Source: a bacterium
Lineage (GTDB): Bacteria > Cyanobacteriota > Vampirovibrionia > Gastranaerophilales > Gastranaerophilaceae
Assembly: GCA_017559905.1 (NCBI GenBank)
Contig: JAFYQF010000023.1
Location: 1 to 64,000, forward strand
DNA length: 64,000 nt
Reading direction: 5' to 3'
Each line of letters opens with the position of its first letter. Position 1 is the stretch's first letter. Made by a program: the position numbers and the translations under genes. Positions 5,311 to 38,200 of this stretch are shown here, piece by piece. Below the pieces are notes generated by a model. It saw only the letters and a program-made list of their open reading frames with translations. It ran no database searches and had not been told where the DNA came from.

Positions 5311-5329
5311 TATTAAAATATTTTTTTAA

Positions 5330-5354
5330 GCGGAGATATCAATCTCCGTTTTTT
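5330..5354 (+). terminator. Intrinsic terminator
   Basis: Hairpin gcggagat-atca-atctccg followed by a T-run. Confidence 0.6.
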
Positions 5355-5408
5355 GTAAAAAATAGTTAAAAAATTGCGCTATCACAAGTCATGAGATAGA
5401 TTATTAGT

Positions 5409-7061
5409 ATGATAAAACAATTACGAATAAAAGATTATATTTTAATAGATGAATTAACCGCAAATTTTCACGAGGGCTTAAACGTAATAACTGGTGAGAC
5501 AGGTGCGGGCAAAAGTATAATGATTAGCGCAATAGACCTAGCATTTGCACAAAGAGTTTCAAAAGAAGTTATTAAAAACGGATGCGAAAAAGCAACTATT
5601 GAATTATCAATAGAAAACACAAAACACAATCTAAAACCATTATTTGAAGAAAATGGAATAGATGACTTTGGTACAGAAATTGTTTTATCAAAAGAAATCA
5701 CCCCTAATGCAGTCAGAACAAGAGTAAACGGCACTCTAGTTAATCAAGATTTCGTAAGAAATTTACGTTCATTATTTTTGGACATTCATTCGCAACATCA
5801 AACATACTCATTTCTTCAACCTAAATACCATATTACGCTTTTAGACACTTACGCCAAAGATGTTTATGGTACAAAGTTGGAAGATTACAAGAACTTGTTT
5901 AGCGAATACACAGCTCTAAAAACCAAACTTGAAAAAGCTAAAAATTCTGCAGACGCAACAGAATCTCAAATTGAATTTTTAAAATTTCAAGTAAACGAAA
6001 TTGAAACAGCAGAAATCAAATCAGAAACAGAAGATGAAGAACTAGAACAAGAATTGGAAGTTTTAGAAAACGCAGAAAAGCTTAAAGAGCTCACGGGTTC
6101 ATCATATTGGGCTATCAATGGTGATGACGGGTCAATATTAGAAGCTTTAGGCAAAATAAAACAAAACGTGTCAAAAGCAGCATCGTTTGATAACAAACTA
6201 GAAGATTTGGAACAAAGCTTAATCGAAAGTATTGAAAATTTAAGAGAATTATCAAGTGATTTAAGAAATTACAGCCAGAATTTAGACAATGATACAGAGC
6301 GCCTTAACGAGATTCAAGAAAGATTATTTTTATTAGACAAACTAAAAAGAAAATATGGTGGAACTCTAGCTTCTGTTCTTGAAACGTTTGAAAAACTTTC
6401 AAACGAACTTTCTAATATAGAATTTTCAACCAAAAACATTGAAGAACTAGAAGCCCAAATTCTAAATACTGAAAAAACATTAATCCAAAAGGCTTCAGAA
6501 ATAAGCGAACACAGAAAAAATTATGCAAATGTATTATCCGTATACATTGCTGAACGCCTAACTAAATTAGAATTACCAAAAGCAAGATTTGAAATATCGA
6601 TAAAAGAAAAAGATTTGTCAGCAGATGGGGCTGATGATGTTGAATTTTTGATATCAACAAACGTTTCGGAAGATTTGAAACCATTAGCAAAAGTAGCATC
6701 AGGCGGAGAAATTTCTAGAGTTATGCTGGCAATAAAATCAATTTTTGCTCAAACAGATGATATTGATACTGTCATATTTGACGAAATCGACACTGGTATT
6801 TCAGGGAAAGCATCCCAAAGCGTTGCAGAAGAAATACTTGAGCTTTCAAAATACCATCAAATTATTTTGATTACTCACCAAGCAATTATAGCCTCAAAAT
6901 CAAATAAACATTTTTATGTTAGAAAATCTCAAGCTGACGAAACAAAAGTTGATGTTTATGTATTAACTGGAGACAACAAAATTAAAGCTCTAGCTGAACT
7001 TGCTGGTGGAGAAATTAATGAACAATCAATAGAATTCGCAAAATCATTAATAGAAACTTAA
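5409..7061 (+). CDS. recN: DNA repair protein RecN (SMC-like ATPase)
   Basis: 550 aa. The N-terminus 'LRIKDYILIDELTANFHEGLNVITGETGAGKSIMISAIDLAF' is canonical for RecN, followed by a long coiled-coil and a C-terminal ABC signature. Confidence 0.85.
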   Translation: MIKQLRIKDYILIDELTANFHEGLNVITGETGAGKSIMISAIDLAFAQRVSKEVIKNGCEKATIELSIENTKHNLKPLFEENGIDDFGTEIVLSKEITPNAVRTRVNGTLVNQDFVRNLRSLFLDIHSQHQTYSFLQPKYHITLLDTYAKDVYGTKLEDYKNLFSEYTALKTKLEKAKNSADATESQIEFLKFQVNEIETAEIKSETEDEELEQELEVLENAEKLKELTGSSYWAINGDDGSILEALGKIKQNVSKAASFDNKLEDLEQSLIESIENLRELSSDLRNYSQNLDNDTERLNEIQERLFLLDKLKRKYGGTLASVLETFEKLSNELSNIEFSTKNIEELEAQILNTEKTLIQKASEISEHRKNYANVLSVYIAERLTKLELPKARFEISIKEKDLSADGADDVEFLISTNVSEDLKPLAKVASGGEISRVMLAIKSIFAQTDDIDTVIFDEIDTGISGKASQSVAEEILELSKYHQIILITHQAIIASKSNKHFYVRKSQADETKVDVYVLTGDNKIKALAELAGGEINEQSIEFAKSLIET

Positions 7062-7074
7062 ATAAGGAGGTTAT

Positions 7075-8361
7075 ATGAATTGTGTAAAATGTAATACAGA
7101 ATTAGAGATCTTAAAAATCAAGAGTGCAAATATTCCATATTGCAAATCTTGTAAAGGTATGTGGATTAAATTTCCATACCTACAAAAAATTGCAGAGCAA
7201 ATTGAATTAAAAACAGATATCGTAAACCCTGTTGATATGGAACCAATTAAACATAAAGAACCACCAAAAACTTGCCCTCAATGTGGACAAGCAATGGACA
7301 AAATTTACTTCAATGGTACCGTTGTCGATGTTTGTAAAACTTGTAATGGAATATGGTTTGATAATGGCGAACTTTCAAAATATTTCAGCCTATTTATGAA
7401 ACAATATCCACAAATAACAGATAATATAACTTTTTTGGACAAATATTGCGACCCTGACCTAAAAGAGAAACAAGCTATTATTAATCAAGAAATAGAAATC
7501 CAAAGCAAAGAAAGAGAAAGACGCGTAATTTCTTTTAACGGTTTTGTAGTTTTATTTTTGTTATTATTTTTTGGCTTAATAGGATTTGTTGCATCAGTAG
7601 CATTTTCACCAATACTAGTTATTTTAATACCAATATTTATATTATCACTTATGGGCTTTAAAGTAATAAAACCTCAAGAAGCAATGGTATTAACAGTTTT
7701 TGGCAAATACATCGGTACATTAAGAGGTGCTGGTTTTCATTGGGTTAACCCATTTGCGCAGAGTGTAACACCATTTATTCCCATATCATTGAAAGCAATG
7801 ACTCTAGACACAGGCAAACAAAAAATCAACGACGAACTAGGAAATCCTATAGAAGTAGGCATCATCGTAATTTGGGAAGTTCAAGATACTGCAAAAGCGA
7901 TATTTAATGTTGAAAATTACAAAACATTTATCGCAGCACAAAGTGATTCTGCCTTGAGAAACATCGTTAGAATGTACCCTTACGATGCGCCAGAAGACTC
8001 TGGAGTACAATCATTAAGAGGCGATAGCGCTGAAATTTCGCACAAACTTAAAACTGAAATTCAACGAAACGTAAGAGTTGCTGGTATTAACGTAGTTGAT
8101 GCAAAAATCACTCACCTTGCATACGCTCCAGAAATCGCAGTAGCAATGCTTCAAAGACAACAAGCCGCTGCGGTAATTGATGCTAAAAAAGCAATTGTTG
8201 ACGGTGCTGTTGGAATGGTTGAAATGGCGCTTAATCGTTTGAACGAAAACAATGTCGTTAAACTCGATGAAGTTGAAAAAGCTAAAATGGTGAACAACTT
8301 ACTCGTAACGCTTTGTAGCAACAAGGAAGCTCAACCAGTATTAAAAAACAATCTTAATTAA
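7075..8361 (+). CDS. SPFH/band-7 (stomatin/prohibitin-like) membrane protein with two N-terminal zinc-ribbon modules
   Basis: Two CxxC...CxxC pairs lie in the first 100 aa, followed by a TM segment and an SPFH-like region ('MVLTVFGKYIGTLRGAGFHWVNPF...'). An AGGAGG RBS precedes the ATG. Confidence 0.65.
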   Translation: MNCVKCNTELEILKIKSANIPYCKSCKGMWIKFPYLQKIAEQIELKTDIVNPVDMEPIKHKEPPKTCPQCGQAMDKIYFNGTVVDVCKTCNGIWFDNGELSKYFSLFMKQYPQITDNITFLDKYCDPDLKEKQAIINQEIEIQSKERERRVISFNGFVVLFLLLFFGLIGFVASVAFSPILVILIPIFILSLMGFKVIKPQEAMVLTVFGKYIGTLRGAGFHWVNPFAQSVTPFIPISLKAMTLDTGKQKINDELGNPIEVGIIVIWEVQDTAKAIFNVENYKTFIAAQSDSALRNIVRMYPYDAPEDSGVQSLRGDSAEISHKLKTEIQRNVRVAGINVVDAKITHLAYAPEIAVAMLQRQQAAAVIDAKKAIVDGAVGMVEMALNRLNENNVVKLDEVEKAKMVNNLLVTLCSNKEAQPVLKNNLN

Positions 8362-23667: not shown

Positions 23668-23739
23668 TCCTCAGTAGCTCAATGGCGGAGCAACCGGCTG
23701 TTAACCGGTAGGTTGTTGGTTCGAGTCCAACCTGGGGAG
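23668..23739 (+). tRNA. tRNA-Asn (anticodon GTT)
   Basis: Cloverleaf with acceptor TCCTCAG/CTGGGGA, anticodon stem ACCGG/CCGGT, loop CTGTTAA and T-loop TTCGAGT. CCA is not encoded. Confidence 0.85.
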
Positions 23740-25295
23740 TTTTTTAATGCAAAGTTTGCATAAGTGGTTTCAACCCCAGGTAGGACAGTCGTTTTCACGT
23801 TTCGATATTTAGAGTTTTTTTTTACTAATTCGAGTTGATTTTTTACTAAATCTTGGAAAAACGGTCGTAATTTTATGTCAAAATGCTTGTCTTTGTAAAG
23901 AATTGCTTCGGCAATTATATTAATTATTTTCTTACGCTGATGCATTGTCCCACGGATAAATAAATCATGTATGTTATCCAAGAAACCAAGCATAATCCCT
24001 GTATCATCATAAAACTGTTTTTCCAAGTCGTTAATTGTCTGAAGCTGTATCAAAAATCTTTCTTTTTCATCTTGCCATTTTTTATTAAACCTTACCCAAT
24101 CCTCATGGCTTATATTCCCATCAAGTTTTAATTCAATCGAGTTCTCAATACGATTTTCTAACTGCTCGATCTGTCTTTTAAGCGTTGCTTTCACCTCTTT
24201 TGTGTAGCCAAGTTTCTTTAGATGTTCTTCCCTTAAATCATCTGCGATAGTATCTCGCATCTCTTTAGGGATTACAATCAATTTAAGCACCTCTGCAAAG
24301 GCTCTATCAACCTTTTCTTCATTAATATAGTCTTGCTTACAAGTACCACCTTTATAGCCCGTACAATGGTAATAAACGTACCTGTAATTACCTTGTCTGT
24401 CTCTTTTGTTTTCTGCTGTAATTTGACAACCGCAATGCCCACAGTGCATTAAACCTGTATAAGCAAATTCCAAGTTATGTTTCTTTGATTTATTAGGGTC
24501 TCGTAACCTATCCTGAACCCTGTAAAATAAAGCTTTACTAATGATGGCTTTATGCTTACCATTATCATAGATCTTATTCATATACTTATAAGATCCAGTG
24601 TAGAATATGTTTTTGAGCATATACTCCACAGTACTACAAGGTATTGCTTTGCCATTTTGGTTTTTAAACCCATCTTCTTGCAATTTTTTAGTTAAAGTGT
24701 TTAGCGAATAAAGCCCACTGTCGTACAATTCAAATGCGCGCCTTACATATATGGCTCTATTTTCATCAATAACAATCGCTTTTGAACCATTAGGGTTTGT
24801 AACGTTAAGGTAACCTATTGGAGCAAGACTTGGATAATCACCTTGCTCTGCTTTTTGTTTTAGTGCAGCAACTGTTCTTGCAGCAATTACTTTTCTCTCG
24901 TACTCTGCAAAATTTATCCCAATGTTTCGCATCAAATCACCCTCTAAGGTATCTACATTGGCCTCTGTTGCAATAAGAAGTTGAATATCATTTTTGACAA
25001 ACAACGGCTTTAATATCCCGTGATAATCTGTATTACTTCTTGAAATTCTATCTAAACGCCAAACAACTACGGCTTTAACGTTGTTTTGTTTTTTCTTGCA
25101 ATAAGCGATTAAATCTTGAATATCCGGTCTTTCAAGATTCTTACCGGATTTACCATCATCTACAAAAATCTTGCTAACGTGATAACCATTCTTGCTCGCA
25201 AATTCAATGCAATCTTTCTTTTGCTTGTCAATACTCACACCAAGTTTGTTTCTGTCCTCGGCAGAAACACGTGCGTACACAACGGCTTTGTTCAT
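23679..25295 (-). CDS. Large serine recombinase (resolvase-N + recombinase + zinc-ribbon domains)
   Basis: The N-terminus 'VVYARVSAEDR...' has the serine-recombinase catalytic domain. A Cys cluster 'CGHCGC...YYHCTGYKGGTC' follows. The 3' ~20 codons overlap tRNA-Asn. Confidence 0.85.
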   Translation of the reverse strand: MNKAVVYARVSAEDRNKLGVSIDKQKKDCIEFASKNGYHVSKIFVDDGKSGKNLERPDIQDLIAYCKKKQNNVKAVVVWRLDRISRSNTDYHGILKPLFVKNDIQLLIATEANVDTLEGDLMRNIGINFAEYERKVIAARTVAALKQKAEQGDYPSLAPIGYLNVTNPNGSKAIVIDENRAIYVRRAFELYDSGLYSLNTLTKKLQEDGFKNQNGKAIPCSTVEYMLKNIFYTGSYKYMNKIYDNGKHKAIISKALFYRVQDRLRDPNKSKKHNLEFAYTGLMHCGHCGCQITAENKRDRQGNYRYVYYHCTGYKGGTCKQDYINEEKVDRAFAEVLKLIVIPKEMRDTIADDLREEHLKKLGYTKEVKATLKRQIEQLENRIENSIELKLDGNISHEDWVRFNKKWQDEKERFLIQLQTINDLEKQFYDDTGIMLGFLDNIHDLFIRGTMHQRKKIINIIAEAILYKDKHFDIKLRPFFQDLVKNQLELVKKNSKYRNVKTTVLPGVETTYANFALKNSPGWTRTNNLPVNSRLLRH

Positions 25296-26051: not shown

Positions 26052-26906
26052 ATGATTTATTTAAACACTTTTTCTTTCCCAACGCTTGAAGATGAAAACG
26101 ACTTCAGATTTTCACAGAATAGAACTTGTTATACAAGCATTTATCCATATGGGATTTTGTCAAAAAATACAATTGAAAAACTAGTTTTTGAACCAATTAC
26201 TATTTTATACGGTGGAAATGGTTGCGGCAAAAGCACGGCTTTAAATGTTATTGCTGAAAAATTAAAACTTGAAAGAGATAACCTATACAACAAAAGTAAT
26301 TTTTTTAATGATTACAAAAAACGTTGTAGATATGAAACAAATGGCATTCCCACTCATAGCAGAATAATAACTAGCGATGATGTTTTTGATTTTACGATGA
26401 ATTTGAGATATTTAAATGAAGGACTAGATAGACAAAGAGAAAATCTTTTAGACGAAGCTTACCGAAGAAAAACTTATCAATTCAAGATGAAAAGCTTAGA
26501 TGATTATGATGAATTTAAAAGAAACATGATTGCACAACAAAAATCTCAATCTGAATTTGTAAGACAATATATGCTACCAAATGTTAAAGAACAATCAAAT
26601 GGGGAAAGTGGATTCATGTATTTTACGAGTAAAATTCAAAATGATGCGCTCTACTTACTTGATGAACCTGAAAACAGTCTTTCTCCAGAAAAGCAAAAAG
26701 AATTGCTACAATTTATTTATGATAGTGCTAGATTTTACAATTGCCAATTTATTATAGCTACGCATTCTCCATTTTTGTTGTCGATAAAAGATGCAAAAAT
26801 TTACGACTTCGATGAAACACCCGTTAAAGTAAAGCCTTGGACAGAATTAAAAAATGTTAGAGAATATTATAACTTTTTCAAACTGCACGAAAAAGATTTT
26901 ATTTAA
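26052..26906 (+). CDS. Soluble ABC/AAA_21-like ATPase
   Basis: Walker A 'GGNGCGKST', signature-like 'SNGESG', Walker B 'LYLLDEPENSL' and H-loop 'IATHSP' are all present. No TM segments. Confidence 0.75.
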   Translation: MIYLNTFSFPTLEDENDFRFSQNRTCYTSIYPYGILSKNTIEKLVFEPITILYGGNGCGKSTALNVIAEKLKLERDNLYNKSNFFNDYKKRCRYETNGIPTHSRIITSDDVFDFTMNLRYLNEGLDRQRENLLDEAYRRKTYQFKMKSLDDYDEFKRNMIAQQKSQSEFVRQYMLPNVKEQSNGESGFMYFTSKIQNDALYLLDEPENSLSPEKQKELLQFIYDSARFYNCQFIIATHSPFLLSIKDAKIYDFDETPVKVKPWTELKNVREYYNFFKLHEKDFI

Positions 26907-26994
26907 TAATTAAGTAGAATAGTTGCAATTAACAACCTAAATAAAATTTCAATTTATACTATTATATATTTATTAGCAATAAGGAGTTATCGTT

Positions 26995-27861
26995 ATGACA
27001 AAAATAGAAATTCTAAATGGTGATATAACAAAGTTAAAAGTCGATGCGATAGTTAATGCTGCCAATAAAAGTTTATTAGGTGGCGGTGGTGTTGATGGAG
27101 CAATTCATCGTGCTGCTGGACATAAACTTTTAGAAGAGTGCCAAACTCTGAATGGATGTGAAACAGGACAATCTAAAATAACCAAAGGTTACAACTTACC
27201 TGCAAAATTCGTTATACACACAGTAGGACCTGTTTGGTACGGAGGGAATAAAAATGAACGAGAAATGCTTAAATCTTGTTATCATACAGCATTAACTCTT
27301 GCCAAAGAAAATGGAGTTAAAACAATTGCATTCCCTGCAATTTCTTGTGGCGTTTACCGTTTTCCATTAGAAGAAGCTTGTGCCATTGCAACTGAAACTG
27401 TAAAAGACTTCATTTCAAACGACGACAGCTTTGAGAAAATAATTTTTATAGATATTAACGAAGAAATTATTAATCTATATTTAGATTTAAGTGATATAAA
27501 TTCCAGATGTCAAAAATTACCAAAAATTAAACCACAAGATTTTAAATGGGGTGGAGGATTTAAAAACTCTAAAGAAGGTGAAACACCACAATTTCCTTAC
27601 GTAATTTATACTGAAAATGTTCTCGAATGGGTTCGATGTTATTATAAATTAGAGTTAATAATGCCAAATTACGTTGAATACGTAAACAATGCAGATTTTC
27701 GAAATAAAAAATTCAAAAATTATTCAAGAAATGATATTCTAAATTTGCTAACATACTATATTCGCCAAGATAGATTTTGCGAAGGTCTGTTGGCTGGCAA
27801 AATCAAATCCGGTGAAGTAACTGAACTCGTTGACAGATTGCACGAAATAACAAAGGGATAG
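26995..27861 (+). CDS. Macro-domain (ADP-ribose-binding/processing) protein with ~115-aa C-terminal extension of unknown function
   Basis: '[27 protein letters not shown]' is the canonical macro signature, preceded by an AAGGAG RBS. The C-terminal region is unassigned. Confidence 0.8.
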
Positions 27862-27874
27862 GTGAACTTATGTA

Positions 27875-28240
27875 GAGAATATTTCTTTTCGGAAGTATTT
27901 ATTGTATAATTGTTTATGGCAGAATCGATAAGAACGATGAGCTATAGTTTCTTTTCGGAAGTATTTATTGTATAATCTAAAATGGTGTAGTATTCCATAG
28001 AACCGTGCTATAGTTTCTTTTCGGAAGTATTTATTGTATAATTAAGGCTGAATAGTGCTGAAGTCCATTACAGCTATAGTTTCTTTTCGGAAGTATTTAT
28101 TGTATAATCGCAAGTGAATTCACCGGTGACGCAAAACGGCTATAGTTTCTTTTCGAAAGTATTTATTGTATAATTAGAATTACATTACTGTTAAGAAAGG
28201 AGGCGCTATAGTTTCTTTTCGAAAGTATTTATTGTATAAT
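27875..28240 (+). CRISPR. CRISPR array: 6 x 36-bp repeats (GCTATAGTTTCTTTTCGGAAGTATTTATTGTATAAT), 5 x 30-bp spacers
   Basis: Repeats lie at 27875 (5'-degenerate), 27941, 28007, 28073, 28139 and 28205. Spacers are exactly 30 bp. Repeats 5-6 carry a G18A variant, and each repeat ends in TGTATAAT. Confidence 0.95.
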
Positions 28241-28286
28241 ACCAATCTTCCAAACCCAAAAGGCACAAGGGGATTGGTATTTTTTA
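28241..28286 (+). terminator. Hairpin plus T-run after last repeat (possible pre-crRNA terminator)
   Basis: accaatc...gattggt stem followed by ATTTTTTATT. Confidence 0.35.
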
Positions 28287-28325
28287 TTCAAAAAAATTAA
28301 AACAAAAGAAGTTGTTCTGCTCCTA

Positions 28326-28490
28326 TTAATAATTAGAAATATGAATTTGTGGATTTTCTAAAATGATTGTTCCAATATCTTCCATTGGAATTGTAACTTC
28401 GTCATCAGAATCGAGAGCTTGGTGTACAAGCTGTCGATTCTTGATATGAAGTTTGCAAGGATTTGAAAATAGTAAAGTTTTATAACTCAT
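28326..28490 (-). pseudogene. cas1: cas1 remnant (N-terminal 54 codons only)
   Basis: The translation 'MSYKTLLFSNPCKLHIKNRQLVHQALDSDDEVTIPMEDIGTIILENPQIHISNY*' resembles type II Cas1 N-termini (SpCas1 '...SKLSYKNNHLIF...EIDILLLETTDIVLTT'). Its ATG overlaps the cas9 stop in ATGA. The remaining ~250 codons and cas2 are absent. Confidence 0.6.
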
Positions 28491-31400
28491 TTATTTTTAA
28501 CCTTTTTTGTGTTCTTAAATTTTATATCTTGTCGTTTTTCTTTTTTTACTTCATGATAATTTCCTAATACATCAATTTGGTATTTTTTGAATGAATAAAC
28601 ACTTTTTACTGCAATTCTAATTATTTCCTTTTTCTTTGCTCCATCTTGTTCTATTACTGTAATACGAGCAGAATCAATATCAGTACTTTTGTAGTAATAA
28701 TATTTTATACTTTCTTCTTTTTCATCCTTATTTATTGAAATTAAGGTGTCTTTAAACAATGAAAATTTAAATTTATAGCTTTCATCCATTTCTAACCAAC
28801 CATCTTTACCATTAGATATAGCTTTATTCGGCAAAATTCCTTTTGCAAAGTCTGAAACATAGATTGGCACAAGATAAAATTCTTCTTTACCTTTTTTATT
28901 CTTTTTAGAAAACACGTCTACCCTTGGCATTGAATCATTATTGGCAAATCCATTATGAACTAATATGCCTGAAGTACCTTTTGATTTTATTTTTATTGTT
29001 TTAATTTCGTGAGGTTTTATTCCCGCTTGTTTTTTTACTTCTGACAATGGCATATAAACAGGCTCAGCAAAAGCTTTTTCTGGTTTATTATCAAACTGCT
29101 CTAGCCTTTCTTTTAAGAGGTTGTATACTACAATGTTTCTTTCTTTTTCGTGCATATCTTCCAATTTTTTTAAATCAATTTTTTGTATTGGTGTCTTTAA
29201 TGTTGTAAATCCTTCATCAAGATGTTTAGGACTACGAATGGTAGCTTCGTGTATACCGCCTGGAATTTTGTTCCTTGGAGCTCTTGATACGAAGATTTCA
29301 CCAATAGAATTTTCTAAATCTTCACTAAATGTTCCCCAAGGTTTTTTAAAACGAGGTTTCATATGGTTTATAAAATCATAGTTTTCACGTTGAGCAGATA
29401 TTGTCGATAAGAATTTAACCATACCTTTTGTCGAACAAGCTACAATTGTCGCATCAACTGCGTGATGCCTGTCATTTTCTTCTCTATCTTTATTTATACC
29501 CCATTGGTTTCTTAAAAACGCGGTAAGTGAGCCGTTTCTTGTCTCTACTTTTATATCAAGATTCGCTTGGATATAGTCTTTAATAAACACCGTTATGTAC
29601 CTTGTATCATTCAGATTTCTTGAAGAAAAGCCGTCGCTATCATCTTTAGAATAAGATTTTCTAATCAAACGATTTATTTTTGGCGATTTCAGGTTTAATG
29701 TTTTTATCCAAGCACAGTATTCTGTCCAATCAACTTTTGAGCCAAAATATTCGTAAGGGATTTTATTACCTTTCATTCTATTTTGGTCAGCTAAGCATAA
29801 TACTTTGTTGTTTAAACTATCATCGTAACATCTTGAGTAAGGAATTATGTGGTCTATATCGGTATAATTCTCATCACTTAATCGTCTTATATCAATAGCT
29901 TTTCTTGAATATGGACAAAAGCCTCCCTGTTCTTCCCAAAGTCTAAATCGTAATAAGTTATTTTTCGAATCTGGATTTACACCATGTTTAAAGCATCTTT
30001 GGCGGGCAAACTCTTTTTCTTTTCTAAAGTCTTCTTGACCGGATTTTATCTTATTACGTTCTTCAGCTGATTTACCTAAATCTCTTGCTGTCTCTATAAT
30101 AATCTTGTCAAATTTACCATATTCTCTTATAAGTGCATTTACTACTTTTCTAGTTTGAGAAATTGCTCGGTTAACAACAGGGTTTGTTGTTAGTTCACTT
30201 TGATCCAAAACTGGTAAATATTCTTTATTTTTTGAAACAATTGCATTTTTAAAATCATACCCAGCTTCAGCACAAGCTTCGTTATATTTTAAACCTTGTA
30301 ACATATAAGGTGTAATTTTTTGCATAGCTTTAATTGATAAATGCATAACTTTGCTAGCAGATAAATCTTTTATGCAATCTATAATTTCTTGTGCAATATC
30401 TTTATCTAATAATCGCTTTGTAATTGCTTCATCAGATTTTTCATAGGTTAGTGCAGTTGCAATTTCATTAAATAAAAGTTCTTTATTATTAAGATTGTCA
30501 AAATACTCATTACCGAATACTTTTATAATAGCTTTTTTAATCTCGTGGTATTTTTTTAATTCAATTAATGTTGCATCTTCTGGATTAATTTCCACCAATT
30601 CTCCCGTTTTTTTATCTTTAGTTTTTTTACCATACTGTAGCGTCTTATAACATATACTCTCTACAAGTCCTAATTCTTTACGAGCTTGTTTATAAGTAAG
30701 TTTTGCTTTTTGATGTGCAATATTAATTAAATCTTGAATTTGCTTTGGTGCCAAATCGACGGAAGTCCCGTCTTCTAAAATCAATTTAGTATTAACAAGT
30801 TTTTGTGTCGCAACAAAAATTTCTGCAGTATATGATGCTTTTGGAGCTCTTTTTTCGTCTTTTTCAAATTGGCAATTCCCAACCATGTTTTCCATTGACT
30901 GCAAAGGTCTTTGATAAAATGAGATTTTCATATATTCTTCTTCAAAATCTTTATTCGCAAATTCAGAGCCGAAACTTCTTTGTTTTTCAAATATGGTTTT
31001 TATTTCTTGTTCTAATAAATCTCTTGGTATTGAATTTTTATAATCGTCTCTTTTGTTTCTTTTGGCACTATGTTCATATATAGTTGCAAACATTTCACCA
31101 ACAGTTTGAAAATTGCCACCTTCAAACTGTTGCTTATTTTCACTTATACATTTTAATAAATTACCCTCAGTCTTTGCTTCTTCACTCTTTCTAATTGATT
31201 TAAACCCTCTGCGTTTTGCAATTTGATGAAGTACTCTATAAAATTCTTCTATTGTTAATTCCCTTGATAAAGCCTCTTTTCTTAAAATCCAAGTATCAAT
31301 TCTTTTTGTATTGTTATGAAAAAGATTTGAAATATCATTCTCTGATAAATATTTATTAGCAATAAATAACTGTTTTATTGCTCTTAACCTATAAGCTCGT

Positions 31401-31594
31401 CTTGATAAACGGCGTCTAGCACCCCGAAAAATCCTACGTTCAGCATTTAAAGGAGCTTTAGTTTTAGCTACTTCGCAAGCTTCAAAAGTTCTAACACCAG
31501 TTTTTAAAATTTCACCATTAAAATTTTCGTCATCATAATTTATTACAGAAAAACCTATTGATGCAATACCAATATCAAGACCTAAAATTTTCAT
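28487..31594 (-). CDS. cas9: Cas9 (type II-C-sized, 1035 aa), nuclease-competent
   Basis: Present are RuvC-I 'ILGLDIGIASIGFSV', an Arg-rich bridge helix, RuvC-II 'IIIETARD', HNH 'DIDHIIPYS...NNKVLC...NRMKGNK' and RuvC-III 'HHAVDATIV'. Confidence 0.95.
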   Translation of the reverse strand: MKILGLDIGIASIGFSVINYDDENFNGEILKTGVRTFEACEVAKTKAPLNAERRIFRGARRRLSRRAYRLRAIKQLFIANKYLSENDISNLFHNNTKRIDTWILRKEALSRELTIEEFYRVLHQIAKRRGFKSIRKSEEAKTEGNLLKCISENKQQFEGGNFQTVGEMFATIYEHSAKRNKRDDYKNSIPRDLLEQEIKTIFEKQRSFGSEFANKDFEEEYMKISFYQRPLQSMENMVGNCQFEKDEKRAPKASYTAEIFVATQKLVNTKLILEDGTSVDLAPKQIQDLINIAHQKAKLTYKQARKELGLVESICYKTLQYGKKTKDKKTGELVEINPEDATLIELKKYHEIKKAIIKVFGNEYFDNLNNKELLFNEIATALTYEKSDEAITKRLLDKDIAQEIIDCIKDLSASKVMHLSIKAMQKITPYMLQGLKYNEACAEAGYDFKNAIVSKNKEYLPVLDQSELTTNPVVNRAISQTRKVVNALIREYGKFDKIIIETARDLGKSAEERNKIKSGQEDFRKEKEFARQRCFKHGVNPDSKNNLLRFRLWEEQGGFCPYSRKAIDIRRLSDENYTDIDHIIPYSRCYDDSLNNKVLCLADQNRMKGNKIPYEYFGSKVDWTEYCAWIKTLNLKSPKINRLIRKSYSKDDSDGFSSRNLNDTRYITVFIKDYIQANLDIKVETRNGSLTAFLRNQWGINKDREENDRHHAVDATIVACSTKGMVKFLSTISAQRENYDFINHMKPRFKKPWGTFSEDLENSIGEIFVSRAPRNKIPGGIHEATIRSPKHLDEGFTTLKTPIQKIDLKKLEDMHEKERNIVVYNLLKERLEQFDNKPEKAFAEPVYMPLSEVKKQAGIKPHEIKTIKIKSKGTSGILVHNGFANNDSMPRVDVFSKKNKKGKEEFYLVPIYVSDFAKGILPNKAISNGKDGWLEMDESYKFKFSLFKDTLISINKDEKEESIKYYYYKSTDIDSARITVIEQDGAKKKEIIRIAVKSVYSFKKYQIDVLGNYHEVKKEKRQDIKFKNTKKVKNK

Positions 31595-31619
31595 ATATCA
31601 CTCCTTAAATATTTTATTA

Positions 31620-31648
31620 TTGACAGTCTAAACTTTGTTTGTTATCAT
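31620..31648 (+). promoter_or_regulatory. Sigma-70 promoter of tracrRNA (TTGACA-17bp-TATCAT)
   Basis: The -35 is at 31620-31625 and the -10 at 31643-31648. The anti-repeat begins ~4-8 nt downstream. Confidence 0.55.
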
Positions 31649-31651
31649 ACG

Positions 31652-31745
31652 ATTGTACAATAAATACTTTCGAAACGTTACTATAGTAAGAAGTTTTCGA
31701 AAAGTTTCTAGCAGATACATTTTAATATGTATCTGCTATCTTTTA
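31652..31745 (+). ncRNA. tracrRNA
   Basis: The anti-repeat at 31652-31690 can pair with 33 of 36 repeat positions (including G-U pairs) with a 3-nt internal mismatch. A palindromic TTTTCGAAAA hairpin follows. The terminator is agcagataca-ttttaata-tgtatctgct followed by ATCTTTT. Confidence 0.75.
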
Positions 31746-31747
31746 GT

Positions 31748-32143
31748 TTATTTTTCATTATTTTCTTTTGCAAAATTTGCAGTATCTTGAATTAATTTTA
31801 TAGCCTTATTACTATCGTGCATTTCTTGCCCATACAAAACAATGTTATCTTCAAAATAATTCCCGTGCAGTTCAATTACATTTTTTGAACCTGCTTTTGT
31901 ATGTAAATTATCGACATTCATTGTAATAATTGGAATATCTAATTCTGCAAGGATTTTGTGTGCCTTTGTTGGTTCTCGGTCTTTAACGTTATTTATAAGC
32001 AAATCAATTGCGTCTTTAAACTCTTTTGGATATTGTTCTTTAAATTCAACGGACAATTTTTCTTTAATTCCAGGTATTTCCTCAAATGTTGGAATACCAG
32101 CTGATTTTGAAATTCCTGCACCTGTAAAAGCTATTATTTTCAT
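31748..32143 (-). CDS. Mini Sir2-like protein (131 aa)
   Basis: 'GAGISKSAGIPTF', 'ITMNVDNLHTKAG' and 'IELHGN' match the sirtuin NAD-binding and catalytic-His core. The Zn-ribbon module and C-terminal half are missing. An AGGAGG RBS is present. Confidence 0.65.
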   Translation of the reverse strand: MKIIAFTGAGISKSAGIPTFEEIPGIKEKLSVEFKEQYPKEFKDAIDLLINNVKDREPTKAHKILAELDIPIITMNVDNLHTKAGSKNVIELHGNYFEDNIVLYGQEMHDSNKAIKLIQDTANFAKENNEK

Positions 32144-32237
32144 AAACTACCTCCTAGATAAGTTAACTATAAACCACTTTTCGTAAGTTGGCATCCATGA
32201 AATTGTCTAGATAAAATTATGTATTTTTTTGAATTTG

Positions 32238-32400
32238 TGATATTATAGGTTCGTAAATAACCTATAAAGAGTGTACGAGGGACAAGCCCGTTGACTACAC
32301 AGCAACCCTTTAAGTTGGGTGCTAATGCTTGAATGATAGGTCAAAACTTTAAGTCGGAAACCTATCACTATGGGTTTCTTTTTTGTTGCTCTTATAGGTT
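32238..32400 (+). ncRNA. Candidate structured RNA / 5' leader with intrinsic terminator
   Basis: Hairpin ataggtt-cgtaaat-aacctat is present. Long-range complement aacctataaagag/ctcttataggtt and an internal gataggt/acctatc pair also occur. A terminator-like gaaacc-N10-ggtttc followed by TTTTTT sits 50 nt before the ATG at 32433. Confidence 0.25.
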
Positions 32401-32432: not shown

Positions 32433-32750
32433 ATGGAACAACAAAAGAAGTATCAAGTTGATTTGTACATTGGATTATTAGCCCCCGATGATTTTATGCA
32501 ACATTTTACCGTTAAAAAAGCAGTTGACACAATAACAGAAGTCATTGGAGATTGCACAATTATACCTTGTATTGGTTCTTGTTCACATACGACAGGTATA
32601 AGAATAAATTTAAACACTTTAAAAATAACAAAATTTATTGATTATGCACCAGAACAATTGATAAACAAAGTCGAAAAACTAAAGAAAATCTTTAATCAAT
32701 ATGAAATTCTTATGAATACCATAAAATGTGATAATTTTAGAATTATTTAA
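32433..32750 (+). CDS. Hypothetical protein (105 aa)
   Basis: ORF with an AAAGGAG RBS and no recognisable motif. Confidence 0.45.
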   Translation: MEQQKKYQVDLYIGLLAPDDFMQHFTVKKAVDTITEVIGDCTIIPCIGSCSHTTGIRINLNTLKITKFIDYAPEQLINKVEKLKKIFNQYEILMNTIKCDNFRII

Positions 32751-33217: not shown

Positions 33218-33832
33218 TTAGAATTTACTTGCTTTCGCACGTGCTTGCAATTCTGCTATTAATTCTTCGGTTGAAAATTCACTTAAACCAGGACTTGTAT
33301 TTTCAAACATATTGCATATAACTTCCGAATACACATCCGGACGCATATTGGCATACTGTTCTAAGATAGTTTCAACTTCCCAATGCCCAATATTTTGGCT
33401 TAGTGCTTTCAATTCTTTACCTGTATGAGCTTTTTCTAAGCCTTTACTTACCATGTAATGTCTAAACGAATGAGGATTATAATCCTTTATGCCAGCTTGC
33501 CTACACATCTTTTTGATGATCTCATTATATTTCGTATTGCTATAATTTTTGTTAACCAATTGAACACCAGATGCATAATTCTTTATCTGTGGGAATAAAA
33601 GGATTTTATTTCCCGAAATATTAGATTTAACATATTCGACCCATTCTTTCAGATACTGCAAATACATTTTATCCAAAACCATAAATCTTGTATAAATTAG
33701 TTTGTCTAATTTTGTGTGAGTATCTTCTAAAGGATCCTGTTTTACCATCAACTTTTGAAAGTCAATCAAATTTATTGTAATAGTCGCAACAGCATCAATT
33801 CTTGCAGCTGTTAACAACATATACGAAATCAA
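33218..33832 (-). pseudogene. Tyrosine recombinase/integrase, N-terminally truncated (catalytic domain only)
   Basis: Box I 'LLTAARIDAV', 'HSFRHYMVS' and 'GHWEVETILEQYANM' cover the R..HxxR..Y catalytic residues. The N-terminal core-binding domain is absent and the fragment abuts a Fic fragment on the opposite strand. Confidence 0.7.
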
Positions 33833-33839
33833 AGCACGA

Positions 33840-34454
33840 TTGCGTGAATCCTCAACTGTATTTGATGGTGAAAAAGTTGAGCATCTTGCACCACCTGCAA
33901 AAAGAGTTCCAGAACTTATGTTTGATTTGTTTGAATGGCTTAAAACAAGTGATGTACATCCATTAATAAAAAGTTGTGTTTTTCATTATGAATTTGAATT
34001 TATTCATCCTTTTCAAGATGGAAATGGCAGAATGGGACGTTTATGGCAAACAGCTATTTAAAAAGAGTGGAAAGAAGTTTTTGCCTGGCTTCCGGTCGAA
34101 ACATTAATCAAAGAAAATCAAAAAGAATATTACAAAGTTCTTGCAGTGAGTGATAGTGTTGCAAATAGTACAAAATTCATTGAATTTATGTTGTCTATCA
34201 TCCTAAACACAATCAATGAAATTATTGAAACTGAGAAAAAGGTTACTGCAAAGGTTACTCTAAAGGTTAGTGTAAATCAACAAAAAATTATCGACGCAAT
34301 CAAGAGTAACCCTAAAGTTACTCAAGAAGGACTTGCTGAAATTGTTGGAATCACAAGAAAAAGCGTCATCTCTAACATGAAAAAACTTCAAGAAAACGGA
34401 TTGATAAATCGTATCGGCGCAGATAAAAATGGGTATTGGAAAGTTGTAGAATAA
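33840..34454 (+). pseudogene. Fic/DOC family protein, 5'-truncated with single in-frame TAA (34059-34061)
   Basis: The Fic motif 'HPFQDGNGRMGR' is present. The same frame continues after the TAA ('KEWKEVFAWLPVETLIKENQKEYY...') into a C-terminal winged-HTH ('ITRKSVISNMKKLQENGLINR'). Confidence 0.7.
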
Positions 34455-35874: not shown

Positions 35875-36032
35875 AAAAATCATCTACTCGCTTAATCATC
35901 CATAGTATTTCTTGCATACTTGGTTCAAAAAATCTTTTGTATAAAGTTTCAATGAATGCTTCCCAACTCTCGCAGGATGGGGAGTTTTTTAATGTCAAAT
36001 TTAAAGCGAGGTTTGTCCTCGCTTTTTGTTAC
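35875..36032 (+). repeat. Direct repeat copy A (~160 bp, ~92% identical to copy B); contains att-like core and a terminator hairpin
   Basis: Aligns base-for-base with 38044-38200. It includes gcgagg...cctcgc followed by TTTTT. Confidence 0.8.
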
Positions 36033-36042
36033 TTATCAGTGA

Positions 36043-37659: not shown

Positions 37660-38046
37660 ATGAACAAGCAAGAACAACTTATAAAATTTGGAATAGCGTT
37701 AAAAAATAGACGTCAAGCGCTTAACTTGAGTCTTAGAGATGTTGAGAAAATATCTAATATTAGTGCTGCATTAATCACCAAACTTGAAAACGGTAAGATG
37801 GCAAATTTTCCTAAAGCATTAACTATTAAACAACTTAGCGATGCTTTAAAATTTGATAACGAATTATTTCTTCTTGCAGATATTTTAAATGAATCCCCAC
37901 AAGTTGCAAAATCCGAAAAAACTTTTGAAGAAGAATTTAGAGAATTTTTAGCAACAAAAACCACCCTAAATGCTGAAAATATTGAACAAACCTTATATTT
38001 TGTATCAGGATTAGAAAAATTACAACAAATAAAGAATATTAATTAA
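37660..38046 (+). CDS. XRE-family helix-turn-helix transcriptional regulator
   Basis: 'LKNRRQALNLSLRDVEKISNISAALITKLENGK' is a classic HTH_XRE. Confidence 0.7.
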   Translation: MNKQEQLIKFGIALKNRRQALNLSLRDVEKISNISAALITKLENGKMANFPKALTIKQLSDALKFDNELFLLADILNESPQVAKSEKTFEEEFREFLATKTTLNAENIEQTLYFVSGLEKLQQIKNIN

Positions 38047-38200
38047 AAATCATCTATACGCTTAATCATCCAAAGTATGTCTTGCATACTTGGTTCAAAA
38101 AATCTTTTGTACAAGGTTTCAATGAATGCTTCCCAACTCTCGCAGGAGATGGAGTTTTTTATTGTCAAAATTAAAGCGAGGTTTGTCCTCGCTTTTGTTT
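38044..38200 (+). repeat. Direct repeat copy B
   Basis: See copy A. The core here reads GATGGAGTTTTTTATTG (degenerate). Confidence 0.8.

What the first reader, a model, noticed from the sequence alone, without database searches (positions are those of the whole stretch)
27875..31745. Interference-only type II-C-like CRISPR-Cas9 locus: intact cas9, tracrRNA and array, but cas1 reduced to a 54-codon stub and no cas2
Every Cas9 catalytic motif is intact: RuvC-I/II/III and HNH. The array and a well-formed tracrRNA are present. Immediately after the cas9 stop, a 54-codon ORF still begins in the classic ATGA stop/start overlap. It translates to a Cas1-like N-terminus and then terminates.

The remaining ~250 codons of cas1 and all of cas2 are absent. 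Only ~85 bp and a hairpin separate the stub from the last repeat. This looks like a clean deletion of the adaptation module that spared the effector side.

Such a locus would be fixed in spacer content (5 spacers) but potentially still active for interference or regulation. The preserved ATGA junction suggests a recent event, or selection on cas9 expression.
Basis: partly seen in the sequence, partly recalled or inferred. Interest (0 to 1): 0.8.

Follow-up and report, generated by a model that had tools for sequence, protein, structure and literature searches.

The report
Cas9 locus that lost spacer-acquisition genes
This is a real but fairly ordinary case: a small Neisseria-type CRISPR-Cas9 system in an uncultured gut bacterium has lost its spacer-acquisition genes (cas1, cas2) to a clean 1-kb deletion, while the cutting enzyme, its guide RNAs and a five-spacer memory stayed intact.

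Summary

- **What is there.** The locus at 27875-31746 is a type II-C (NmeCas9-like) CRISPR-Cas9 system. It has an intact 1035-aa cas9, a divergent tracrRNA, and six 36-nt repeats with five 30-nt spacers.
- **The cas1 stub.** The 54-codon ORF after cas9 is the true N-terminus of type II Cas1. It is 74-85% identical to residues 1-54 of intact Cas1 in relatives.
- **The deletion.** All seven distinct relatives with 70-81% identical Cas9 carry cas9-cas1(294-295 aa)-cas2(110 aa)-array. Against the nearest of them, the window lacks exactly 1,022 bp, from cas1 codon 55 to about cas2 codon 100. The last 10 cas2 codons survive out of frame.
- **No other cas genes.** No other cas1 or cas2 lies in the 64 kb.
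- **A second allele.** A 98% identical locus (L004) carries a different, overlapping ~1.0-kb deletion, from cas1 codon 9 to about cas2 codon 49. The module was therefore lost at least twice.
- **Selection on cas9.** cas9 shows dN/dS of 0.11 between the two alleles.
- **Precedent.** Cas9-only type II-C loci are already described (Campylobacter coli clade 3). Two more turned up among about 70 metagenomic relatives.

This is a new member of a known kind. Activity of the locus, and its spacer targets, remain untested.

The parts
27875..27910 (+). First ('extra', oldest) repeat of the array. It is mutated in its first 7 nt (GAGAATA instead of GCTATAG) and keeps the 3' TATAAT.
   Evidence: It pairs with the anti-repeat at only 25 Watson-Crick positions with 8 mismatches (dG -27.7), against 30-31 with 3 mismatches (dG -38) for the other repeats. 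This fits the mutated extra repeat described for type II-C arrays (PMC12080349).
27875..28240 (+). CRISPR array of six 36-nt repeats (GCTATAGTTTCTTTTCGRAAGTATTTATTGTATAAT) and five 30-nt spacers (27911-27940, 27977-28006, 28043-28072, 28109-28138, 28175-28204). crRNAs are read on the + strand.
   Evidence: The strand follows from the tracrRNA being on the + strand and complementary to the + strand repeat. Each repeat ends in TATAAT. A promoter within each repeat is inferred by analogy with type II-C (PMC12080349) and was not tested.
28238..28290 (+). Hairpin with a 13-bp stem followed by a U-run, directly after the last repeat. It is terminator-like for + strand array transcripts. It lies in the conserved 56-nt stretch between the cas2 stop and the array (the acquisition-side 'leader').
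   Evidence: The fold has dG -16.1 and z = -3.65 on the + strand. The stretch is 81-82% identical in L001 and L008 and 98% identical in L004.
28297..28329 (-). cas2 remnant: the last 10 codons plus stop (LIGAEQLLLF*). It is out of frame with the stub.
   Evidence: tblastn against L001 Cas2 residues 101-110. blastn block 2 aligns to L008 from position 4498. The L004 remnant ends in the same sequence, IIGAEQLLLF*.
28328..28328 (-). Deletion junction. The single T is shared by the cas1-side and cas2-side alignment blocks. Relative to L008, 1,022 bp are missing (L008 3476-4497).
   Evidence: the two blocks overlap by 1 nt. One search shows the same two-block picture against L001.
28326..28490 (-). 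cas1 stub of 54 codons. It is the N-terminal part only and lacks the catalytic C-terminal domain. Its ATG overlaps the cas9 TGA (ATGA).
   Evidence: (TIGR03639 positions 1-49 of 278, 33.9 bits against a cut-off of 120).
28487..31594 (-). cas9, 1035 aa, intact, NmeCas9-like (type II-C).
   Evidence: The best solved relative is NmeCas9 6jdq, E = 1.8e-186. Catalytic residues are invariant in 31 homologues. dN/dS is 0.11 against L004. The sequence is identical to NCBI MBR5555691.1.
31620..31648 (+). Promoter-like site for the tracrRNA: TTGACA, 17 nt, TG, TATCAT.
   Evidence: It matches 11 of 12 positions and is the best match in 27700-32300. It is a consensus match only.
31655..31746 (+). tracrRNA, divergent from cas9. 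The anti-repeat is at about 31652-31687, followed by an internal hairpin and a terminator stem at 31709-31738 with a U-run.
   Evidence: (dG -24.2, z = -4.9). It is conserved in 8 loci, with 8 base pairs showing compensatory changes. The 5' end is inferred from the promoter.

Best explanation
This is a canonical Neisseria-type (II-C) CRISPR-Cas9 locus whose adaptation module was removed by one illegitimate-recombination deletion. About 1.02 kb is gone, from cas1 codon 55 to about cas2 codon 100.

**What remains is the full interference side:**
- cas9;
- a divergently transcribed tracrRNA;
- a five-spacer array read on the + strand towards cas9, probably from a -10 box at the end of each repeat;
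- the terminator-like hairpin after the last repeat.

**How it most likely works.** Cas9, tracrRNA and the five crRNAs can still cleave DNA that matches the five spacers next to the right PAM. No new spacers can be added, because the Cas1 stub lacks the catalytic domain and Cas2 is gone. The memory is therefore frozen.

**Context.** The locus sits among recombinase genes, gene fragments and defence-type genes next to a tRNA-Asn gene, so it probably lies in a mobile or defence island of an uncultured gut bacterium. The nearest Cas9 relative is from a Gastranaerophilales MAG.

**Shown:** the deletion, its breakpoints, the intactness of the effector parts, and a second independent deletion in a sister locus.

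**Inferred:** expression, cleavage activity, and promoters within the repeats.
For: **Deletion.** Two colinear alignment blocks flank a 1,022-bp gap relative to L008, and the same pattern appears against L001. The stub equals Cas1 residues 1-54, and a cas2 tail is retained.

**Ancestral state.** All seven distinct relatives at 70-81% Cas9 identity have cas9-cas1-cas2-array. So do about 67 of about 70 evaluable metagenomic relatives.

**Not an artefact.** The same junction and the same five spacers occur in contigs that are 99.99-100% identical, from ENA ERZ28653921, ENA ERZ27256904, Logan SRR12529255 and an NCBI MAG.

**Effector intact.**
- cas9 matches the Cas9 model over its full length and keeps its catalytic residues.
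- The tracrRNA has a promoter, an anti-repeat and a terminator, with covariation across relatives.
- Repeat-to-anti-repeat duplexes have dG of -38 kcal/mol.

**Selection.** cas9 dN/dS is 0.11 between the window and L004 (35 synonymous and 16 non-synonymous changes). L004 has a different deletion (cas1 codon 9 to about cas2 codon 49) that again spares the cas9 stop, the leader hairpin and the repeat.

**No cas1 or cas2 elsewhere in the window**.

**Established knowledge (own knowledge, not tested here).** Cas9, tracrRNA and crRNA suffice for interference. Cas1's active site lies in its C-terminal domain.
Against: - No protospacer was found for any of the five spacers. This holds for GenBank phages, PLSDB plasmids, IMG/VR (20-nt seeds) and the window itself. 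There is therefore no evidence of current targets and no PAM.
- No expression data exist. The promoters within the repeats have weak -35 elements and were not picked up by the consensus scan.
- The dN/dS covers the whole divergence of the two alleles. Part of that time may predate the deletions, so purifying selection after the loss is not strictly shown.
- Only 64 kb of the genome was seen. A second cas1-cas2 could exist elsewhere.
Confidence: 0.72

Rival explanations
1. The locus is simply decaying. Loss of cas1-cas2 is the first step of losing the whole system, and cas9, tracrRNA and the array are no longer used and merely not yet mutated.
For: The neighbourhood is full of gene debris: a SIR2 fragment of 131 aa, a tyrosine-integrase fragment of 204 aa against 365 aa in L004, and a Fic fragment. 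The array is short, with 5 spacers against about 22 repeats in L001. No spacer target was found.
Against: cas9 is full length with all catalytic residues, and its dN/dS is 0.11 between the two deletion alleles. Two independent deletions both stop short of the cas9 stop codon and of the leader and array. The tracrRNA is unchanged relative to intact relatives.
Confidence: 0.15
2. Adaptation is not lost. It is supplied in trans by another type II cas1-cas2 elsewhere in the genome, so the array can still grow.
For: Sharing of the adaptation machinery in trans between co-resident systems is documented for other CRISPR types (abstracts of PMC8092290 and bioRxiv 10.1101/2024.10.25.620265, seen). Only 64 kb of the genome was examined.
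Against: There is no cas1 or cas2 in the window. The array is identical in all assemblies recovered. However, those contigs are almost clonal, so this is weak evidence.
Confidence: 0.06
3. Cas9 is kept for a non-defence role, such as regulating host genes or limiting DNA uptake, and the frozen array serves that role.
For: Non-canonical Cas9 roles are reported for Francisella, Campylobacter and Neisseria (own knowledge). Selection on cas9 without adaptation would fit.
Against: No spacer matches anything else in the 64-kb window. No scaRNA-like element was seen. Nothing specific points to this reading.
Confidence: 0.06
4. The deletion is an assembly or binning artefact.
For: The sequences are metagenome-derived.
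Against: The same junction appears in contigs from at least three different assemblies and assemblers (for 99.99-100% identity). The junction has only 1 nt of overlap, so a repeat-induced misjoin is implausible.
Confidence: 0.01

Closest known systems
Neisseria meningitidis type II-C CRISPR-Cas9 (Nme1Cas9; PDB 6jdq)
   Same: It is the best solved-structure match (E = 1.8e-186). The two share a Cas9 of about 1,035-1,080 aa, the same catalytic motifs and 36-nt repeats ending in a -10-like box. In both, the array is read towards the cas genes, the tracrRNA lies upstream of cas9, and the ancestral operon (as in relatives) is cas9-cas1-cas2 with no fourth gene.
   Different: Here cas1 is cut to 54 codons and cas2 to 10 codons. 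The host is an uncultured gut bacterium. The PAM and activity are unknown.
[quoted passage not shown] 2015, PMC4607530)
   Same: It is a type II-C locus with a cas9 that keeps its RuvC and HNH motifs but has no cas1 or cas2. Sister strains (clade 2) have the full cas9-cas1-cas2 operon. The authors likewise inferred loss of spacer acquisition with retained Cas9 function.
   Different: It is a different Cas9 lineage and host. Here the deletion scars (cas1 stub and cas2 tail) are still visible, the breakpoints can be mapped, and two independent deletion alleles are seen.
Intact sister loci in gut metagenomes and MAGs (L008 Logan SRR27608069; L005; L006 GCA_964570895.1; L009; L011 GCA_045616505.1; L001 Gastranaerophilales MAG JAZLLQ010000042)
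   Same: Their Cas9 is 70-81% identical. They share the same repeat, tracrRNA and leader hairpin.
   Different: They keep cas1 (294-295 aa) and cas2 (110 aa), and where visible they have longer arrays (about 22 repeats in L001).
Adaptation-less CRISPR-Cas on mobile elements (Tn7-associated I-F and I-B, plasmid type IV, huge-phage systems)
   Same: These also combine an interference module and a short array without cas1-cas2, in a mobile-element context (papers listed). The window locus lies among recombinase genes next to a tRNA gene.
   Different: Those are distinct, long-established lineages with dedicated biology. This case is a recent deletion in an otherwise standard II-C locus. The Cas9 clade is essentially absent from viral contigs.

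Membership tests
Type II CRISPR-Cas (signature gene cas9) | A Cas9 with a split RuvC-like domain and an inserted HNH domain, with catalytic residues present | tested here: met
   TIGR01865 at 798 bits over positions 2-1070 of 1070. HNH_4, RuvC_III and Cas9_RuvC are found. D7, E501, H582, N605 and H710/H711/D714 align to NmeCas9 and are invariant.
Type II CRISPR-Cas | A tracrRNA with an anti-repeat complementary to the CRISPR repeat | tested here: met
   The anti-repeat at 31652-31687 forms 30-31 Watson-Crick pairs, 2-3 G-U pairs and 3 mismatches, with dG of -38. Promoter and terminator are present. Covariation is seen across 8 loci.
Type II-C subtype | An operon of cas9-cas1-cas2 only, with no csn2 or cas4 | tested here: not met
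   Relatives have exactly cas9-cas1-cas2 followed by the array. In the window only cas9 is intact, and cas1 and cas2 are remnants. By descent the locus is II-C. By gene content it is a degenerate II-C.
Type II-C subtype | Array layout: a promoter in each repeat, transcription towards the cas genes, acquisition at the last repeat, and an often mutated first ('extra') repeat | tested here: inconclusive
   The strand of the crRNAs follows from the tracrRNA strand. Each repeat ends in TATAAT. R1 is mutated in its first 7 nt. A terminator-like hairpin follows the last repeat. Promoter activity was not tested, and the consensus scan did not call these sites. The layout is as described in PMC12080349.
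Cas1 (TIGR03639, type II Cas1) | A full-length protein of about 280-295 aa that includes the C-terminal catalytic domain | tested here: not met
   Only profile positions 1-49 of 278 are matched, at 33.9 bits against a cut-off of 120. The ORF stops after codon 54.
Cas2 (PF09827) | An intact ORF of about 110 aa | tested here: not met
   Only the last 10 codons remain, out of frame. No Cas2 family hit occurs anywhere in the window.
Cas9-only type II-C loci (as in C. coli clade 3) | An intact cas9 with an array, and no cas1 or cas2 in the locus | tested here: met
   The published description was read.
Cas9-only type II-C loci (as in C. coli clade 3) | No cas1 or cas2 anywhere else in the genome | not testable with these tools
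   Only the 64-kb window and its overlapping contigs could be read. None was found there.

The most novel reading that the evidence does not exclude
The adaptation module was excised at least twice, independently, from near-identical island-borne Cas9 loci. The deletions are offset by about 140-150 bp, and each spares the cas9 stop, the leader hairpin and the array. This parallelism could reflect positive selection against Cas1-Cas2 while Cas9 interference is kept, for example because of the cost of self-spacer acquisition. If so, the lineage is a natural replicate experiment on the cost of CRISPR adaptation.
Probability: 0.25. Interest if true: 0.5.

Novelty: new member of a known kind. Interest (0 to 1): 0.3.

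Why it matters
The locus is a cleanly documented example of how a class 2 CRISPR system becomes 'memory-frozen'. The scars are still readable, the breakpoints can be mapped to the nucleotide, and a sister allele shows that the same outcome arose again.

This gives a small, concrete handle on whether adaptation genes are costly while the effector is worth keeping. It also supplies one more compact Cas9 of about 1,035 aa with a defined tracrRNA and repeat for anyone mining orthologues.

It does not change what is known about CRISPR biology. Cas9-only II-C loci are already described.

Tried and rejected
**Searches that led nowhere**
- Spacer targets. The five spacers, concatenated, were run by blastn (word 11) against GenBank phages and PLSDB plasmids, and gave only chance-level hits at E = 7. 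The 20-nt PAM-proximal seed of each spacer had no exact match in IMG/VR. There was no self-match in the window or in the loci held at that point, L001-L011.
- More alleles of the locus. The 28-nt 3' end of cas9 found nothing in the metagenome contigs. A protein search with the 54-aa stub returned only the stub itself, because the word index is insensitive for so short a query.
- Host taxonomy. A MnmG homologue search and a cluster look-up returned no organism names. NCBI labels the source only as 'bacterium'. The Gastranaerophilales affinity rests on one Cas9 relative.
- Island test. An exact look-up of the neighbouring BaxI protein was not on record.
- Pfam on the stub gave no hit. NCBIfam did.
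- Rfam at gathering thresholds has no family for this tracrRNA or repeat.

**Explanations considered and rejected**
- Phage-borne Cas9. The window is chromosomal, carrying RecN, PFOR, MnmG, sigma-70 and GlnA. The Cas9 clade has only one 26%-identical hit in viral contigs.
- Assembly artefact. The same junction appears in several assemblies.
- One deletion allele derived from the other. This is impossible. The window keeps cas1 codons 9-54, which L004 lacks. L004 keeps cas2 codons of about 50-99, which the window lacks.
- ATGA overlap as evidence of selection. Relatives instead have an adjacent stop and start or a 1-nt overlap, so the overlap is not conserved.

Full report
**1. The observation**

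- A 1035-codon ORF lies at 28487-31594 on the minus strand. It translates to a protein beginning MKILGLDIGIASIG.
- It matches the Cas9 equivalog model TIGR01865 end to end at 798 bits, and the Pfam HNH_4, RuvC_III and Cas9_RuvC domains.
- Its best solved relative is Neisseria meningitidis Cas9 (6jdq, E = 1.8e-186).
- The catalytic residues D7, E501, D581-H582, N605 and H710-H711/D714 align with those of NmeCas9. They are invariant in an alignment of 31 homologues.

Directly after cas9 comes a 54-codon ORF at 28326-28490, in an ATGA stop/start overlap.
- Pfam finds nothing in it.
- NCBIfam TIGR03639, the type II Cas1 model, matches profile positions 1-49 of 278 with E = 2e-8.

The array follows after an 85-nt gap. 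It has six 36-nt repeats at a 66-nt period and five 30-nt spacers, at 27875-28240.

**2. What happened to cas1 and cas2**

The closest genome-collection relative is L001, a Candidatus Gastranaerophilales MAG with Cas9 71% identical. It has this layout:
- cas9 at 3940-7032;
- cas1 at 7032-7919, 295 aa;
- cas2 at 7916-8248, 110 aa;
- an array of about 22 repeats.

Six further distinct relatives with Cas9 at 70-81% identity (L005, L006/L007, L008, L009, L011) all have a Cas1 of 294-295 aa and a Cas2 of 110 aa between cas9 and the array.

tblastn with L001 Cas1 and Cas2 against the whole window gives two relevant results:
- one significant hit, in which the stub is 74% identical to Cas1 residues 1-54 (E = 4e-21);
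- immediately adjacent, a short match of Cas2 residues 101-110.

DNA alignment to the nearest intact locus (L008, 87% nucleotide identity) shows two colinear blocks.
- Window 28560-28328 aligns to L008 3242-3475.
- Window 28328-28205 aligns to L008 4498-4622.
- The blocks share a single T.
- The window therefore lacks L008 3476-4497. This is 1,022 bp, running from cas1 codon 55 to about cas2 codon 100.

The deletion length is not a multiple of three, so the stub runs straight into a TAA. The last 10 cas2 codons (LIGAEQLLLF*) survive in another frame at 28329-28297. The 56-nt stretch between the cas2 stop and the first repeat is retained.

No other cas1 or cas2 is present in the window. This holds for tblastn and for Pfam or NCBIfam scans of all other substantial reading frames.

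**3. Not an artefact**

The exact Cas9 and the exact stub occur on several contigs:
- the NCBI MAG proteins MBR5555691.1 and MBR5555690.1;
- ENA ERZ28653921;
- ENA ERZ27256904;
- Logan SRR12529255.

Those retrieved are 99.99-100% identical to the window over 4-17 kb, including the junction and all five spacers.

**4. A second, independent deletion**

Locus L004 (Logan SRR27608095) has a Cas9 that is 99% identical in protein and 98% identical in DNA. It carries a different scar.
- cas1 codons 1-8 (MSYKSLLF) are joined to cas2 from about codon 49-50 onward (...VCRGQDIVEREIRR...IIGAEQLLLF*).
- The same leader and repeat follow.
- Relative to L008 this removes about 3337 to about 4345, with a TATT microhomology. 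The right-hand breakpoint is read by eye from the alignment and is approximate.

The window keeps cas1 codons 9-54, which L004 lacks. L004 keeps about 50 cas2 codons that the window lacks. Neither allele can derive from the other. At least two deletion events therefore removed the adaptation module in this lineage, and both spared the cas9 stop codon, the leader hairpin and the array.

Between the two alleles cas9 has 35 synonymous and 16 non-synonymous differences (dS = 0.059, dN/dS = 0.11). This is similar to the 0.07-0.08 seen against intact relatives.

**5. Anatomy of the RNA side**

*The tracrRNA*
- The strongest promoter-like site in the region is on the + strand at 31620-31648: TTGACA, 17 nt, TG, TATCAT, matching 11 of 12 positions.
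- A 36-nt anti-repeat follows at 31652-31687.
- A 12-bp terminator hairpin with a U-run lies at 31709-31738.
- The roughly 92-nt RNA folds at -24.2 kcal/mol with z = -4.9.
- It is conserved in eight loci, with eight base pairs showing compensatory changes.

*The crRNAs*
- The tracrRNA is on the + strand and is complementary to the + strand repeat. Pairing is 30-31 Watson-Crick, 2-3 G-U and a 3-nt internal loop, with dG of -38 kcal/mol. The crRNAs must therefore also be read from the + strand, towards cas9.
- Each repeat ends in TATAAT.
- The cas-distal repeat R1 is mutated in its first 7 nt and pairs poorly with the tracrRNA (dG -27.7).
- A 13-bp hairpin with a U-run follows the last repeat on the + strand.

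This is the type II-C layout described by Feussner et al. 2025 (PMC12080349). In that layout each repeat carries a promoter, spacers are acquired at the last repeat, and the first 'extra' repeat is mutated. Promoter activity within the repeats was not tested here.

**6. Context**

The window is chromosomal. It carries RecN, pyruvate:ferredoxin oxidoreductase, MnmG, sigma-70, glutamine synthetase and two tRNA genes.

The Cas9 locus lies in a stretch with these features:
- a large serine recombinase abutting tRNA-Asn;
- a PtuA/AriA-like ATPase;
- a macro-DUF6508 protein;
- a truncated SIR2 gene;
- a truncated tyrosine integrase;
- a Fic fragment.

A 17-nt direct repeat (TGGGGAGTTTTTTAATG) occurs at the 3' end of tRNA-Asn (23733-23749) and again at 35978-35994. 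This suggests an island of about 12 kb. However, the right-hand copy lies inside an element of about 150 nt that is itself present twice. The boundary is therefore tentative.

L004 shares the flanks but has a resolvase and a ParB-like gene where the window has the SIR2 fragment. It also has a full-length integrase.

**7. Function**

Cas9, tracrRNA and crRNA are sufficient for interference, and the Cas1 active site lies in the missing C-terminal domain (established knowledge, not tested here). The most likely state is therefore an interference-competent system with a frozen memory.

The weaknesses of this reading:
- No target was found for any spacer.
- There are no expression data.
- The rest of the genome could not be searched for another cas1-cas2.

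**8. Comparison with what is known**

Pearson et al. 2015 (PMC4607530) described a type II-C 'CRISPR-Cas9-only' system in Campylobacter coli clade 3. Its RuvC and HNH motifs are conserved and it has no cas1 or cas2, whereas clade 2 strains have the full operon. The authors drew the same inference.

In a survey of 80 metagenomic relatives, about 70 could be evaluated.
- About 67 had cas1-cas2.
- Two (L030, L055) had cas9 followed directly by an array.
- One (L062) had neither cas1-cas2 nor an array.

Cas9-only II-C loci are therefore a recurrent minority, at a few per cent.

**9. Verdict**

The locus is a new member of a known kind.

The only feature beyond the ordinary is the parallel, independent excision of cas1-cas2 in two near-identical loci. 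This hints at selection for loss of the module but does not prove it.

Interest is 0.3.

Noticed in passing
L004:8100-8401 (Logan SRR27608095 contig): A locus 98% identical to the window carries a different cas1-cas2 deletion. cas1 codons 1-8 are fused to cas2 from about codon 49-50 to codon 110. Neither allele can be derived from the other, so the loss is independent.
   Followed up: yes
window 23733-23749 and 35978-35994: An exact 17-nt direct repeat (TGGGGAGTTTTTTAATG) lies at the 3' end of tRNA-Asn and again 12.2 kb away. It brackets the serine recombinase, the defence-type genes and the Cas9 locus, so it may mark the att sites of an integrated island.
   Followed up: partly
window 35880-36035 and 38045-38200: An element of about 150 nt is present twice at about 92% identity. 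It ends in a GC-rich hairpin with a T-run on the + strand, and copy A contains the right-hand 17-mer above. It matches no Rfam family (best E = 0.08). It could be a small RNA gene, a repeated island end or a MITE-like element.
   Followed up: partly
window 32259-32342 (+): A SAM (S-box) riboswitch, RF00162 at 54.6 bits and above the gathering score, lies inside the putative island. It sits upstream of a 105-aa ORF (32433-32750) that has no significant family match. This is an unusual cargo for a riboswitch.
   Followed up: no
window 31748-32143 (-): A truncated SIR2-family gene of 131 aa matches only about the first half of the CobB/Sir2 models. It lies directly upstream of the tracrRNA. In L004 this 0.5-kb segment is replaced by 1.8 kb that encodes a resolvase and a ParB_N protein.
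   Followed up: partly
window 33218-33832 (-) and 33759-34058 (+): There is a tyrosine-integrase fragment of 204 aa, against a 365-aa gene at the same place in L004. An overlapping Fic/DOC-domain fragment is also present. Both are gene debris in the island.
   Followed up: partly
window 26052-27861 (+): A PtuA/AriA-like ABC-type ATPase (284 aa) is followed by a macro-domain-DUF6508 protein (288 aa), next to the array. This may be a two-gene defence pair. PADLOC matches only the ATPase.
   Followed up: partly
window 23679-25295 (-) and tRNA-Asn 23668-23739 (+): The reading frame of the 538-aa large serine recombinase runs about 60 nt into the tRNA-Asn gene on the opposite strand. Its C-terminus is therefore encoded across the putative attachment site.
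   Followed up: no
window 28156 and 28222 (repeats R5, R6): The two cas-proximal repeats carry A at repeat position 18, where R1-R4 carry G. The A variant pairs perfectly with the tracrRNA and matches the relatives' repeats. This fits acquisition at the cas-proximal end.
   Followed up: partly
L030:7084-7400 and L055:3852-4564: In two distant metagenomic relatives (Cas9 38-39% identical), cas9 is followed directly by a CRISPR array with no cas1 or cas2 within 4 kb. These are further natural Cas9-only type II-C loci.
   Followed up: partly
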